The notes beneath the pieces are model-generated. The model had not been told where the DNA came from, did no database searches, and saw nothing but the letters and a program-made list of their open reading frames with translations. A program made the position numbers and the translations under genes. DNA of 52,914 bases, counting the filler, from Diploschistes diacapsis (lineage: Eukaryota): NCBI GenBank assembly GCA_023645945.1. It is 3 parts of 3 records of this genome, joined end to end, with 100 filler letters (N's around TTAATTAATTAA, not from the genome) between each part and the next. Parts side by side here need not be neighbours in the genome. Positions count along the whole stretch, not along the records: positions 1 to 17,575 come from JALAIB010000449.1; 2 more parts are not named here. One strand, 5' to 3'. This document shows, one piece after another, positions 968 through 6,170 of this stretch (within the stretch, counting starts at the first letter, position 1; each line of letters starts with the position of its first letter).

Positions 968-2144
968 TCAATATCTATAGCAAAGAAGTTTCTCTCGAGT
1001 GTTTGCAACATCAGATATTTGTACGTTCGGGGCTAGAACTGCCATGTGAATCATGTTGTAAGTTGTTGCGGAGCCTGCATCATGCGGAGAGTCCTTTCGA
1101 GATGAGGGCAAGCGCTCAGGCGAGTGATTTTGCCATAGCCACCATATTCTATCGATCTGGGTATGGTGGAGATACCGCATAGGATCTGCATGCGTATGAG
1201 TCAGTCGCCTGTTCTCTGTTGCTCGCAAGCATAGCTGCAAAGCGATATCAAGTTGAGGAAGGGCTCACCGTTCGGCGCCGCAGTGGCAGAAAAGTCGCCT
1301 CGGACTATCCTTGCGATGCCGAAATGTACTCTCTCCGCTAAGATACGGTCGAATCCGATCTGTTCGGGCTCAGGTATCAGATCCTCGATGGCCTGAGGCT
1401 TGATACGCGAGCAATGATGTCCAGCTCCGGCGACGATACAAAGCCTCTTGAAAGGCAGTGCCGCACAGTCCTATTCGAGTACCGTACAGAGAGCCCCGCG
1501 AACGGACCATCTGCTACACAGTTACCGTTAAGCACTCCCGGCCCGGCCTCGATCTTCCCATCAGTTCCGAAAGCTAAGTCGCCGGGGCCCCAAACAGGAG
1601 CATTAAGGATATTTTGCCAGTTCAATGTCCAGTCCCAGTAGGTCATGGAGCCGTTGTAATGTCATTCATCCTGCAGAGCCGTTTAGAACAGGTGTAAGAA
1701 GTAGCGATGCCAGGCTAAGAAGCCCACGTTGTAGTGATTCGCTTGAGAGAAAGTCAGTCCTCCGCGAAGTCGTGCTTAATAAAACTCACAGTCCTCTAAT
1801 ACGACACCGTGGACCCACACGAAGTCATCATAGCGGGAGTGGTCCATACCCAGCTTTGACGAACTCCTGGTGAGGCACTGCACAGCGTGAATGTAACGCT
1901 GCTCTCTCCGTGCTATCTAGGCTTCTCCATTCTCGACGAAATGTTGGTTTCTGACAGACCAGGTTGAACGCAACTCCGTCCCTCCCCCCTGAAGATAAAG
2001 TATATCAAAGCTGGAGTTGCGATGAGCAGGAGTACGGGAATGCTACATCCGAGGAGCGGCCCCCATTTCTCACGATGATAAGGCTTCTCGACGAGGTCTT
2101 CTTCGTAATGCTCTTGTTGCAAAGGCTGGTATTTTGTTGAACAT
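968..2144 (-). pseudogene. Tyrosinase (UstQ/PhomQ-like, N-terminal membrane anchor), pseudogene
   Basis: Reconstructed across frames: M..KYQPL..TM..CQKPTFRREWRSL..YIHAVQCL..RYDDFVWVH..H..GFLAWHRYFL..TYWDW..GNCVADGPF..HCLSRGF..APNDPMRYLHHTQIDRIWWLWQ..LCYRY. In-frame stops TAA (1683-1685) and TGA (1662-1664), plus several frameshifts. GT-AG introns near 1745-1790 and 1190-1270. Confidence 0.9.
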
Positions 2145-2503
2145 GGCGGCGACGATGCGCAATGGGCTCTTAATGTGGTAAATGTAATCGCAAGCGTTGG
2201 ACAGCAGGATGAGCCATTGTCGCAGAGATCACTGATAAGAATGGGGGAGACCAGCCTACCCGAATTTGTATCAGCGTAAAAAAGTGAGCTTGCAGAAAGC
2301 GGGCTTCGAGCTTCCAAATCTGAAAACTCGCTAGATAGGATGGACTGCAAGCGCATCCGACAATAACCGGTGATCGAGCAATGCCTAATCCCATCTCGCA
2401 CCCGTGTAGCAAAGCTGGAGTAGATCGCTTCCCGTCCCGTTCCTGTGCGTTGCCCCCAGTCTCTGCAAAACCTTGGGCGAGGATGATCCGCTAGAGCGTT
2501 AAG

Positions 2504-2914
2504 ATGTCGTACAGGGATTTCCACTTCATTTGAGGCGTTGCTAGCTGTAGCGCTATAGCAGGACGCACTACTAAGCGCATTACCGCAGAGAGTGTGGTAA
2601 GCTCGGAAGGAATCCAAGGCAAATGAGGATGATTGGATAGGCGTCTTTGCCGGCTTTTGGGCAATTGGGGCAAACTGCGCTATTACCTCAAATGTTGCAG
2701 CTTTCGATCAGGAGGTGGTCCACCGTAGGAGGTGATTTGGACAGCCTGCTTAGAAAGAGGAGGAGCTTTGGCCCATCCTACGGGCCATTGCCAGGAATTA
2801 CCTATCCTGATCCTGACGAACCAGGTAAGCCACACAGAGGATATGCTGTGTAACCCTTTTTTTCTTTTTCTTTTTGAATGAGAATACAACCCCCCACCGC
2901 GGTTGGAATGTTAG
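2504..2914 (+). pseudogene. Possible second small secreted peptide (RiPP precursor-like) gene, degenerate
   Basis: Hydrophobic ALLAVAL*QDALLSALPQR stretch, GTAAGC donors at 2597 and 2825, and exon ...GDLDSLL-RKRR-SFGPSYGPLPGITYPDPDEP. Splicing 2825-2882 (weak GAG acceptor) gives DPDEPEYNPPPRLEC*. Confidence 0.35.
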
Positions 2915-3101
2915 CATGTAAGCGCTAGTCAAACGCCACTCAAACCCGGCTCGCTCACATTCCCAAGCCCAAAGTCGCTTCACAGCAAATCAGAGCAAAC
3001 CGTGTGGGACGGGGGAGTCTGTTCGGCTCGTGGATTGCCGCTAACAACTGTTACCCTTAATGATGTGTTTCAATTTTTATGCACCCGCTCTCGCATCCTG
3101 C

Positions 3102-4022: not shown

Positions 4023-4081
4023 CTCTAAGTAGCAGCATGGAATGCTCGAACAAACATTCATTTCCGACACAAAACCCTTCT

Positions 4082-4377
4082 CTAGTAGATTGCCGCATCA
4101 GCATCGCTGACAGGCTTGCCGTCCTCTGCTTGTGCCATTTGCCATGTGCCCGTGCCTGAAAAGATTTAGTTGGCAGGCGTATTTCTACACCATCTCCATG
4201 ACAGTATCTTGAGCGGAGCGCTCCACCATAACATCGGTGCTAAGTTGGTCTCCTAAGGAAAGAAGTCGGCGATTCGATTCAAGCATTTATATTCAGTGAC
4301 ATACCAGGAAAAGGTGACGCAGCGGCAAAGACAAGTGCCTGGAAAGGCATAAGAAGGATGGCGTGAAGGAATTTCAT
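4082..4377 (-). CDS. Small secreted peptide, candidate RiPP precursor (3 exons: 4377-4305, 4252-4208, 4155-4082); the second intron donor reads AT instead of GT
   Basis: cacaATG start and signal peptide MKFLHAILLMPFQALVFAAASP. Canonical 52-nt intron 1 (gtatgt...ccttag). A second 52-nt intron-like segment (atactg...tgccaac...ttttcag) restores a 63-aa product ending VER-SAQGTGTWQMAQAEDGKPVSDADAAIY*. Lies between the two DUF3328 genes. Confidence 0.65.
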
Positions 4378-5236
4378 TGTGGATAGCGATCAAGAAGATG
4401 CTTCGGTGGCAACGGTGCAAGGTTGCTTGAAGATGTTCAGAGAAGAACTTTGGAAGAAACGACTACACTTCCAGAAATCGCTCAGGCTGTTCGCCATCTG
4501 CTTACCGTGCAGGATGTGCATATGATCGGGGCCTCGATCGCATAGGGTCAGTCTTTTGTAACAGTGAGTGGGCGACGTAGTAGGGGCGGATTAGGATCTA
4601 ATGCCGTACGATTGCCAAATCACACTCTGCGCCATGGCTGCCTGAGCATGACTGAGACGCGGTGAGCTTGAAAAGAGTTTCCACACCAGGTGCGGAGGTC
4701 GGTGTGGTGATCTTGACTGGAAGTGAGTGGTAAGCGAGTCAGCCGCCCGAGAGATTGCTAGCACAGAGAATTTCCGTAACTTGCTGAGCATCCGCGCTTT
4801 AAGTAACTGGCAAGCGGCTGATGTAGTACCTCGGCCCGGGATCTTGCTCGTACCACAACAGTAGATGTTTGCCACAGTGGGAAGACGATTGTTTTCGGTC
4901 TTCAAGCAAGCCATAAATGGCTGGCCTTGTAGATTCTTGAACCGCACGAACAATTCGTAATATTGTATCAAAGAACGCTCGCTATTCGTCGAAGAGGTTA
5001 CTGGGTTAGACCCAGGCCCATATTCCCGCTGAAAACAGGTACTGTAGATACCAGTGCCAAACCACGCATAAGGTAGGAAATTCGTAGGCACAAACAGATG
5101 ATGATGCTTACTGTTTGGCATAATCTGGAAATGGGTGTCAGGTGGTATGGACGTCAATCAGCCTCATATGTCAGTGGACTGCTCCCCAAGCCCTTAATGG
5201 TTAGAATTCTTGAATTATCAATTTCGAGAACTAAGC

Positions 5237-6170
5237 TTAGTCTAACATTAATCCATCCGTCTCACCATGGCATAGATTCTGGTGAAAAACATTGTTCAAG
5301 CCATCTGAGTCTGTTGGATCGCAAGCACTATGGGCCGTAACCCAGTCGCACAGAGCGCTCCAGTTTTTGCATTGTCTCGACTGTGTCTGATGCATCTCAC
5401 GATGTCCAAAGGTGAATATTAGATTGTATGAGGGAGTGCAGGTGATGCTTTGGACGATTGAGTCGAAGCAGTGGGCATAGTGTGCGAGCGTTCTCTCCAA
5501 CGGCTTGCCTCTGAGAAGATTGTAGAAAGCCTTTCTAGTCGTCGTCTGCTCCATGTCAACCAAAGTCGATGGTGGATATCTTAGATCAAAAAAATCTTGC
5601 CGCGGACGAAAGCGAAGGTAAAAGGGGAGTGCAGAATGAACGCCAAGTACGCTCAGAATTTGGATAAGTTGAACTCACCACAATGCAGTTGATGATAGGC
5701 TTCCAAGTAGTAAAGCACTTTGGTCATGTTGCTTGGTAGATACATCGATCTTGGAAGGCCTCGCTCTTCTGCCCACTCACGATCGAGCGCGACAATGCCG
5801 TGATCAGGTATTATTGCGTTCCAGGCTGCATCGACAGCTTCATAGTCGCTTTCATTTTTAGGATAGTAAGGGGTCCGTTTCTTCCATTGTATAGTTTCTG
5901 AAAAGGACGTGTCAATACCAACTAAATATCTTAATATATAAGACTTGATGGACCCCAAGCAACCTACATGCATTCAGACTCCCACTATCTGGTTTACCTC
6001 TCCGGCTCATGATATGAGGAATCGTCAAGCAACAATCAAGGACTATGAGAGAAAAGAATAACGATGTTCTTCCAAGGGATACTGCGCCTCCTGAAAGCGG
6101 TTTTTGAGACGATCAACTCGTCTGAAAGATGTAAAGATAACGGTAAATATTGAGCTTCACTTCTAGACAT
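5237..6170 (-). pseudogene. DUF3328 / UstYa-like oxidase 2, probably frameshifted
   Basis: MSRSEAQYLPL..TM (frameshift near 6050)..VDAAWNAIIPDHGIVALD..GLPRS..YYLEAY-HQLHC | ..A-HYAHC-FDSIVQSITC..RQCKNWSALCDWVTAHSAC: two HxxHC motifs. The intron phase after HQLHC does not match the next exon. Confidence 0.85.

What the first reader, a model, noticed from the sequence alone, without database searches (positions are those of the whole stretch)
968..6170. Compact fungal RiPP-like locus (tyrosinase + 2 DUF3328 oxidases + tiny secreted peptide genes) with no Kex2-repeat precursor
Seen: a tyrosinase, two DUF3328 genes each with two HxxHC motifs, and small signal-peptide genes between them, all within 5.2 kb. 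Known: DUF3328 (UstYa/UstYb, PhomY, AprY) with tyrosinase (UstQ/PhomQ) is the signature of dikaritin RiPP clusters such as ustiloxin and phomopsin. Their precursors have a signal peptide and many KR-flanked core repeats. I found no tandem-repeat precursor here, only single-copy peptides carrying an acidic D-x-D-x-x-x-Y motif. Inference: this may be an uncharacterised single-core class of DUF3328/tyrosinase-modified peptides, with Tyr as the hydroxylated or cross-linked residue.
Basis: partly seen in the sequence, partly recalled or inferred. Interest (0 to 1): 0.85.

Follow-up and report, generated by a model that had tools for sequence, protein, structure and literature searches.

The report
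Decayed fungal peptide-modification gene cluster
This stretch of a lichen-associated fungus holds the broken remains of three enzyme genes of the kind that make ustiloxin-like cyclic peptides, so it is a dead gene cluster and not a new way of making peptides.

Summary
The three enzyme genes are real, all on the minus strand: a tyrosinase (2144-968) and two UstYa/DUF3328 genes (4022-3214 and 6170-5237), each with two HxxHC motifs.

All three look broken.
- The tyrosinase has two in-frame stops inside a conserved exon and four frame changes.
- DUF3328 no. 1 has lost about 59 codons plus one base, including its membrane anchor. Its tail carries further stops.
- DUF3328 no. 2 needs unlikely splices to stay open. 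It has also replaced three residues that are near-invariant in the family.

Two related genomes in public runs carry different deletions in the same genes. Housekeeping genes in the same window are intact.

I found one signal-peptide-like ORF (ATG at 4377), not several. The D-x-D-x-x-x-Y motif occurs at chance frequency and lies in a different frame. The window holds no repeat precursor, NRPS or PKS. The left side ends in a multi-copy, RIP-like repeat.

Tyrosinase plus two DUF3328 genes without a repeat precursor, and the single-core idea, are already in print for lichen fungi (PMC12048977).

Verdict: a pseudogenised relic of a dikaritin-type cluster, of low interest.

The parts
968..2144 (-). 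Tyrosinase pseudogene. ATG at 2144, stop at 970-968. One intron lies at about 1789-1768 and one at about 1254-1187.
   Evidence: Pfam PF00264 hits the fragments. The closest protein, P0001, is 53% identical over 94 aa. tblastn shows pieces in three frames. The direct read from the ATG stops after 24 codons.
1662..1685 (-). Two in-frame stop codons (1685-1683 and 1664-1662) inside the conserved copper-A exon of the tyrosinase.
   Evidence: In the tblastn alignment both stops face ordinary residues of P0001, with no gap. The segments are listed.
1400..1412 (-). Frame change in the tyrosinase. Run X2 differs here by one base in length, which keeps its frame.
   Evidence: Overlapping tblastn pieces lie in two frames. 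Length difference at 1409 in X2 (table 4).
3214..4022 (-). DUF3328/UstYa gene no. 1, a pseudogene. Exon 1 is 4022-3915, with a stop at 3935-3933. Exon 2 is 3824-3595, exon 3 is 3516-3412, and exon 4 is 3333-3217 with its stop at 3216-3214. HxxHC motifs are at 3612-3598 and 3468-3454.
   Evidence: No splice model keeps a hydrophobic anchor: of 9 GT-AG pairs, 2 are open, and the best hydropathy is -0.95.
3933..3945 (-). Site where the window lacks 178 letters that run X2 has, followed by a premature stop.
   Evidence: In one search table 8, X2 record 11 has its positions 573-750 between the two pieces that meet at 3945. 178 is 59 codons plus 1, which reconciles the start frame with the frame at the exon end (my reading). 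Exon 1 of P0003 is about 96 aa against about 36 aa here.
3095..3175 (-). Relic of the C-terminal tail of DUF3328 no. 1. It is in another frame and carries a stop at 3151-3149.
   Evidence: tblastn of P0013 residues 254-280 matches here at 48% identity with a stop inside the match.
5237..6170 (-). DUF3328/UstYa gene no. 2, probably a pseudogene. ATG at 6170. The frame changes inside the anchor at about 6050. Intron at 5997-5898, exon 2 at 5897-5680, second half at 5548-5240, stop at 5239-5237. HxxHC motifs are at 5694-5680 and 5482-5468.
   Evidence: The direct read is out of phase with 6 stops, and rescue needs an extra weak intron. Two bases are missing at 5678 compared with X2 and X3. The near-invariant Ala-Asp-Asp and Arg are replaced.
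4279..4377 (-). Signal-peptide-like ORF of 32 codons if unspliced, with a GT donor at 4304. This is the only candidate for a precursor or its relic.
   Evidence: Sequence. A crude filter passes 3 of 838 ATG ORFs in the window, and 20 shuffles give a mean of 1.15. No relative was found.
4082..4105 (-). The D-x-D-x-x-x-Y motif and its stop codon. It is in a different frame from the signal-peptide exon.
   Evidence: 9 matches in 105,824 six-frame residues.
1..967 (.). AT-rich, RIP-like, multi-copy repeat that ends the locus on the left.
   Evidence: GC is 0.318. TpA/ApT is 1.02 and (CpA+TpG)/(ApC+GpT) is 0.87, against 0.70 and 1.39 in the cluster. Depth in X1 reaches the thousands, with several loose ends at 587-720.

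Best explanation
The locus is the pseudogenised remnant of a dikaritin-type cluster (a UstQ-like tyrosinase plus two UstYa/DUF3328 oxidases) in a lichen-associated ascomycete.

In the ancestor, the three membrane-anchored enzymes most likely acted in the secretory pathway on a secreted precursor peptide and cross-linked or hydroxylated an aromatic residue. That step is inferred from the known ustiloxin pathway.

In this genome the pathway is dead. The tyrosinase is certainly broken. DUF3328 no. 1 has lost its anchor and part of its tail. DUF3328 no. 2 is probably broken and has lost near-invariant residues. No product is expected.

The precursor gene has either decayed beyond recognition, with the signal-peptide-like ORF at 4377 possibly its last piece, or it lay beyond the repeat at the left edge.
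For: Family membership.

Tyrosinase:
- Two stops face residues of the closest homologue.
- Frame changes lie at about 2140, 1957-1990, 1905 and 1409, where there is no room for an intron.
- The read from the ATG stops after 24 codons.

DUF3328 no. 1:
- 178 letters present in X2 are absent here, at the place where the frames disagree and where relatives have their membrane segment.
- No splice model keeps an anchor.
- The tail relic is out of frame and holds a stop.

DUF3328 no. 2:
- The direct read has 6 stops.
- Two bases are lost at the donor compared with X2 and X3.
- Ala, Asp, Asp and Arg are kept in 58, 59, 59 and 53 of 60 family members but are all replaced here.

Relatives:
- X2 lacks 2964-3493 and has a 14-base loss inside exon 2 of no. 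2.
- X3 lacks 3204-3563 and 1876-2982.
- These are different lesions in each lineage.

Substitutions: of 15 listed coding substitutions between the window and X2 in the tyrosinase, 9 change the residue and 6 do not. This is weak evidence for relaxed constraint.

Control: long uninterrupted ORFs of housekeeping genes lie in the same window, including 547, 507, 758 and 812 aa. An independent assembly of run X1 is identical over 1141-9000.
Against: - DUF3328 no. 2 can be kept open by an extra intron with weak signals. Of 23 GT-AG pairs, 9 are open and 5 keep a hydrophobic stretch. Alternative splices after its first HxxHC also work in 3 of 18 pairs. Its death is therefore probable, not proven.
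- X1 may be the sample the window came from, so its identity to the window is not fully independent.
- One search lists only part of the differences to X2 and X3 (398 substitutions and 57 length differences are not shown). I cannot say whether the tyrosinase stops are shared.
- No RNA data were available.
- The ancestral function as a RiPP pathway is inferred from family likeness only.
Confidence: 0.85

Rival explanations
1. One reading: a working, compact RiPP locus of a new single-core class. Small secreted peptides ending in an acidic Tyr motif would be modified by the tyrosinase and the DUF3328 oxidases.
For: The enzyme families fit. One signal-peptide-like ORF lies between the DUF3328 genes on the same strand, and such ORFs are rare under a crude filter: 3 of 838, with a shuffle mean of 1.15 per window. 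No repeat precursor is present. PMC12048977 (section 22, read) voices the same idea for lichen clusters.
Against: The enzymes are broken. The motif is at chance frequency, occurs once, and is in a different frame from the signal-peptide exon. I built the signal-peptide filter after seeing the ORF. No relative of the small ORF was found in the 20 fetched loci.
Confidence: 0.04
2. The genes are intact in the organism, and the stops and frame changes are errors of sequencing or metagenome assembly.
For: The window comes from a metagenome assembly. Four of the lesions are single-base length changes.
Against: - Two lesions are base substitutions that make stop codons, and one is a 178-letter absence.
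- Logan's separate assembly of X1 has 0 differences over 1141-9000 at word depth 93.8.
- Neighbouring housekeeping genes have long open frames.
- Related genomes show further, different lesions.
- Near-invariant residues are replaced.
Confidence: 0.04
3. A rival for the ancestral function: the enzymes did not serve a ribosomal peptide. They tailored a non-ribosomal peptide or polyketide, or the tyrosinase had an unrelated role.
For: - DUF3328 enzymes also occur in cyclochlorotine, astin and atpenin pathways (PMC12048977, section 22, read).
- Relatives of this tyrosinase on 20 metagenome contigs have no UstYa gene nearby. On the 8 long contigs scanned they sit among housekeeping genes.
- The two closest named DUF3328 relatives in Viridothelium virens lie on different contigs.
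Against: No NRPS or PKS is among the 29 long ORFs of the window. A tyrosinase next to two DUF3328 genes is the combination known from ustiloxin-type clusters. The metagenome tyrosinases are only 25-50% identical and are not orthologues.
Confidence: 0.2

Closest known systems
Ustiloxin B cluster of Aspergillus flavus (precursor UstA, tyrosinase UstQ, DUF3328 oxidases UstYa and UstYb)
   Same: A tyrosinase next to two DUF3328 genes with double HxxHC motifs, and membrane-anchored enzymes. The pathway is as described in PMC12048977 section 20 (read); the gene names are partly from my own knowledge.
   Different: No repeat precursor, methyltransferase, P450, flavin monooxygenase of the UstF kind or peptidase was found in the window. 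All three genes carry lesions. The tyrosinase subfamily lacks the second copper-B histidine.
Lichen 'Clan R1' RiPP clusters of Parmeliaceae (Pasinato and Singh 2025, PMC12048977)
   Same: Lichen fungi, two DUF3328 signature genes with a tyrosinase nearby, and no conserved repeat precursor found. The authors themselves raise a single core peptide or a precursor outside the cluster (sections 14, 20 and 22, read).
   Different: Clan R1 has an O-methyltransferase between the signature genes, a SAM methyltransferase and an FGE-sulfatase. None of these is here. The closest named proteins here come from Trypetheliales and Teloschistales MAGs, not Parmeliaceae. The paper does not mention pseudogenes (0 occurrences of the word). 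I did not see its supplements.
Asperipin-2a cluster (a single UstY homologue with a repeat precursor)
   Same: It shows that one DUF3328 enzyme can suffice, so a surviving DUF3328 no. 2 could in principle act alone (PMC12048977 section 21, read).
   Different: Asperipin-2a has a repeat precursor, a transporter and a reductase, and none was found here. DUF3328 no. 2 has lost near-invariant residues.
DUF3328 enzymes of non-ribosomal pathways (cyclochlorotine, astins, atpenin)
   Same: The same enzyme family (PF11807).
   Different: Those sit beside an NRPS or PKS. None is in this window.

Membership tests
Dikaritin-type RiPP cluster (five criteria of Ding et al. as quoted in PMC12048977 section 23) | Precursor with an N-terminal leader and repeated core/recognition motifs | tested here: not met
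   TRF on 1-12000 found no coding repeat. No ORF in the window combines KR sites with a repeated core. DNA to the left of the window was not available.
Dikaritin-type RiPP cluster (five criteria of Ding et al. as quoted in PMC12048977 section 23) | Tyrosinase gene | tested here: met
   Present by homology, but as a pseudogene.
Dikaritin-type RiPP cluster (five criteria of Ding et al. as quoted in PMC12048977 section 23) | Multiple DUF3328 genes | tested here: met
   Two are present. Both carry lesions.
Dikaritin-type RiPP cluster (five criteria of Ding et al. as quoted in PMC12048977 section 23) | Methyltransferase | tested here: inconclusive
   None among the 14 ORFs or the 29 long ORFs. Shorter ORFs and the left side were not covered.
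Dikaritin-type RiPP cluster (five criteria of Ding et al. as quoted in PMC12048977 section 23) | Transporter or peptidase | tested here: inconclusive
   None among the ORFs scanned. The left side is unknown.
Dikaritin-type RiPP cluster (five criteria of Ding et al. as quoted in PMC12048977 section 23) | Open reading frames that can give working enzymes | tested here: not met
UstYa / DUF3328 (Pfam PF11807) | Profile score above Pfam's gathering score (25 bits) | tested here: met
   26.8 bits (no. 1) and 41.5 bits (second half of no. 2). The first half of no. 2 scores 21.8, below the cut-off.
UstYa / DUF3328 (Pfam PF11807) | Two HxxHC motifs | tested here: met
   Both genes have them.
UstYa / DUF3328 (Pfam PF11807) | Near-invariant Ala-Asp-Asp 16-18 residues after the second HxxHC | tested here: not met
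   Kept in no. 1 and replaced in no. 2. The residues are kept in 58, 59 and 59 of the 60 relatives that have two motifs.
UstYa / DUF3328 (Pfam PF11807) | N-terminal membrane anchor | tested here: not met
   No. 1: no splice model keeps one. No. 2: kept only across a frame change or a weak extra intron.
Tyrosinase / type-3 copper protein (Pfam PF00264) | Profile score above the gathering score (22.6 bits) | tested here: met
   28 bits for the last exon. The middle fragment scores 17.9 bits, below the cut-off.
Tyrosinase / type-3 copper protein (Pfam PF00264) | Copper-B pair of histidines spaced by three residues | tested here: not met
   The window, P0001, P0002 and L001 have only the first histidine. 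More distant relatives on 8 loci (L007, L009-L015) keep both.
Kex2-processed repeat protein (precursor type) | Signal peptide followed by KR-flanked repeated units | tested here: not met
   The ORF at 4377 has a signal-peptide-like start only. No KR-flanked repeats follow it in any frame.

The most novel reading that the evidence does not exclude
The signal-peptide-like ORF at 4377 is the last piece of a non-repeat precursor. Intact versions of this cluster in related lichen-associated fungi, such as Trypetheliales, would then make a single-core tyrosinase/DUF3328-modified peptide. Their tyrosinase-like enzyme would naturally lack one copper-B histidine.
Probability: 0.08. Interest if true: 0.6.

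Novelty: new member of a known kind. Interest (0 to 1): 0.15.

Why it matters
- A tyrosinase plus DUF3328 signature, which genome-mining rules count as a fungal RiPP cluster, can be a dead relic. Counts of 'novel RiPP clusters without precursor' in lichen fungi may include such relics.
- The locus shows three related genomes each losing different parts of the same cluster. This is an ordinary picture of birth and death of secondary-metabolite clusters.
- It gives no new chemistry and no testable precursor.

Tried and rejected
- Whole genome: none is held.
- RNA evidence: no RNA holder was listed, so I could not test expression or splicing of the small ORF.
- Word-based homologue search with DUF3328 no. 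1: 49 candidates, none significant. The exhaustive search then found 677.
- The search for related loci with a five-row alignment failed because it was too loosely conserved. A two-row alignment worked.
- tblastn of the DUF3328 pieces and of the small-ORF pieces against the 20 fetched loci gave no hit at E 0.01 or better.
- A possible third DUF3328 relic at about 2400-2620 scored E 0.24 among 197 ORFs, which is not significant.
- Looking for the Bogoriella neighbours of P0001 through named homologues: none of the 120 listed proteins came from that MAG.
- Earlier scan notes: nothing on this genome or on look-alike stretches, and the word search gave only unrelated bacterial and archaeal repeat peptides.
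- Parts of the stretch without cover in X2 or X3 are not used as evidence unless a contig joins across them.
I worked out the coordinates by hand from earlier outputs instead.
- I did not fold any structure or test any complex, because no claim here needed it.
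Full report
**Source and setting.** The window is fungal DNA. A public lichen-metagenome run (X1) holds all sampled words of 968-6400 and may be its source. A run labelled only as organism A (X2) holds 0.29 of the words, and a rock metagenome (X3) holds 0.09. No whole genome is held. All genes of the finding lie on the minus strand.

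**The observation.** Pfam finds the tyrosinase domain in two fragments and UstYa/DUF3328 in three fragments, out of 14 ORF translations tested. An exhaustive HMMER search with DUF3328 no. 1 found 677 relatives at E 0.001 or better, the best 54% identical over the matched stretch. I built a family HMM from 76 of the 150 listed hits, those of 190-300 aa. It scores the four DUF3328 fragments of the window at E 3e-44 to 1e-4. Each gene has two HxxHC motifs.

**Tyrosinase (2144-968).**
- The closest protein is P0001 from a Bogoriella megaspora MAG, 53% identical over 94 aa.
- tblastn of P0001 on the window gives pieces in three frames.
- Inside the piece that covers the copper-A region, two stop codons (1685-1683 and 1664-1662) face ordinary residues of P0001 with no gap.
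- Pieces overlap or abut at about 1905 and about 1409, so these frame changes cannot be introns.
- Between the membrane segment and the first conserved block (1957-1990) there are only 34 bases, again too few for an intron.
- The ATG at 2144 is out of frame with the conserved N-terminal stretch that begins a few bases later. The direct read from the ATG stops after 24 codons.
- Run X2 differs by one base in length at 1409, which keeps its frame there.

This gene is dead.

**DUF3328 no. 1 (4022-3214).**
- The start (ATG 4022) reads 29 codons and meets a stop at 3935-3933.
- The end of exon 1 (3915, with a good GT donor) is in another frame. That frame joins correctly to exon 2 at 3824, and the junction matches the relative P0003.
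- At 3945, between the two frames, the X2 contig has 178 letters that the window lacks (table 8). 178 is 59 codons plus one base, exactly the shift needed.
- Relatives carry their membrane segment at this place. Exon 1 is about 96 aa in P0003 against about 36 aa here.
- No GT-AG model keeps a hydrophobic anchor. Of 9 pairs, 2 are open, and the best 19-residue hydropathy is -0.95.
- The intron after the first HxxHC can be spliced in frame (3594 to 3517), so I do not count it as a lesion.
- After the stop at 3216-3214, the tail that relatives have is still recognisable at 3175-3095. It lies in another frame and carries a stop.

**DUF3328 no. 2 (6170-5237).**
- The direct read of exons 1 and 2 is out of phase and meets 6 stops.
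- The frame changes inside the hydrophobic segment at about 6050.
- An extra intron could bridge this: 9 of 23 GT-AG pairs are open and 5 keep a hydrophobic stretch. The candidate sites are weak.
- At the donor after the first HxxHC, the window lacks two bases that X2 and X3 both have. With them the exon would end in phase and the spacing to the next block would equal that of relatives. Without them only 3 of 18 GT-AG pairs stay in frame.
- Among the 60 relatives with two HxxHC motifs, Ala, Asp and Asp at +16 to +18 are kept in 58, 59 and 59, and Arg at +9 in 53. Gene no. 2 has replaced all four. Gene no. 1 keeps the three but not the Arg.
- I rate no. 2 as probably dead.

**Relatives.**
- X2's contigs lack 2964-3493, which holds the second HxxHC and the last exon of no. 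1. They also have a 14-base loss inside exon 2 of no. 2.
- X3 lacks 3204-3563 and 1876-2982.
- The lesions differ between lineages, which fits long decay.
- Of the 15 listed coding substitutions between the window and X2 in the last two tyrosinase exons, 9 change the residue. The sample is small but fits relaxed constraint.
- One search did not show 398 substitutions and 57 length differences, so the comparison is partial.

**Error control.** Logan's own assembly of X1 is identical to the window over 1141-9000 at word depth 93.8. No second copy at 80% likeness or more was laid there. Housekeeping genes in the window have long open frames with full-length Pfam matches: isopropylmalate synthase 547 aa, an eIF2B-type subunit 507 aa, DUF2457 758 aa and KRR1 415 aa.

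**Small ORFs and the motif.**
- Between the DUF3328 genes there is one ORF with a signal-peptide-like start (ATG 4377) and a GT donor after 24 codons and one base.
- Under a crude filter, 3 of 838 ATG ORFs in the window pass, and 20 shuffles give a mean of 1.15. Its place between the genes is therefore mildly unlikely by chance, but I wrote the filter after seeing it.
- The D-x-D-x-x-x-Y motif occurs 9 times in 105,824 six-frame residues. It occurs once on the sense strand in this interval, in a different frame from the signal-peptide exon.
- Joining the two needs an unsupported splice with a poor acceptor (my reading).
- No KR-flanked repeat follows the ORF in any frame.

**Context.**
- To the right lie a fungal-rhodopsin-domain membrane protein, an FAD-binding monooxygenase and then unrelated genes.
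- None of the 29 long ORFs is an NRPS, PKS, methyltransferase, peptidase or transporter.
- To the left the locus ends after 967 bases of AT-rich, RIP-like, multi-copy repeat with several alternative continuations in X1. What lay beyond is unknown.

**Relatives elsewhere.**
- A scan of metagenome contigs with the two closest tyrosinases gave 20 fungal loci. None holds a UstYa ORF by my HMM.
- Pfam on 128 ORFs of the 8 long distinct loci showed splicing factor, helicase, phosphatase and similar neighbours. I dropped two duplicate loci and ten loci that were not scanned (nine of 1.2-3.6 kb and one tenth, L001).
- These tyrosinases are 25-50% identical to P0001 in their best segment and are not orthologues.
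- A profile search listed 129 UstYa proteins at E 1e-10 or better, many from lichen MAGs.

**Literature.** Pasinato and Singh 2025 (PMC12048977; I read the abstract, section 17 part 1 of 2 (up to sub-section 22) and passages of sections 8, 14, 15 and 23, but not the supplements) describe lichen clusters with two DUF3328 genes and a tyrosinase. They found no repeat precursor and suggested a precursor elsewhere or a single core peptide. The word 'pseudogene' does not occur in their text. Two library searches gave no paper that demonstrates a single-core dikaritin.

**Conclusion.** The single-core idea is neither new nor supported here. It remains a small possibility for intact relatives that I could not fetch.

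Noticed in passing
window 1312-1325 (minus strand); P0001, P0002, L001:587-802: The tyrosinase subfamily nearest to this gene has only the first histidine of the copper-B pair, with a proline where the second should be. The window has alanine there, and X2 and X3 read proline. More distant relatives on 8 loci (L007, L009-L015) keep both histidines. This may be a tyrosinase-like protein with an altered copper site.
   Followed up: partly
window 1-967: AT-rich stretch (GC 0.318) with RIP-like dinucleotide indices. Depth in run X1 is very high and there are several alternative continuations. It is probably a degraded transposon, and it makes the left neighbour of the cluster uncertain.
   Followed up: partly
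window 2400-2620, minus strand: Faint likeness to the C-terminal half of DUF3328 proteins (tblastn E 0.11, own HMM E 0.24 among 197 ORFs). It could be a third, older relic, but it is not significant.
   Followed up: partly
window 3095-3175; P0006, P0008, P0013, P0016: A subset of UstYa proteins shares a conserved C-terminal tail, with a Cys-Pro-Pro-Gly-Ser-Pro-Tyr-like motif, beyond the Pfam domain. Its relic is still visible here.
   Followed up: no
window 17576-17675 and 35248-35347: Four runs of 44 N each interrupt the window, inside or beside a CCR4-like gene and an acyl-CoA thioesterase gene.
   Followed up: no
window 22284-24863 (minus) and 28247-29572 (plus): An NLR-like gene (AAA_16 plus TPR repeats, 859-aa open frame) and a long ORF without a Pfam match lie a few genes to the right of the relic.
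   Followed up: no
L003:7987-9486 and L004:7837-9291: On two different metagenome contigs the related tyrosinase sits directly downstream of the SF3a60/Prp9 splicing-factor gene and a DEAD-box helicase. This conserved housekeeping neighbourhood has no secondary-metabolite genes.
   Followed up: no
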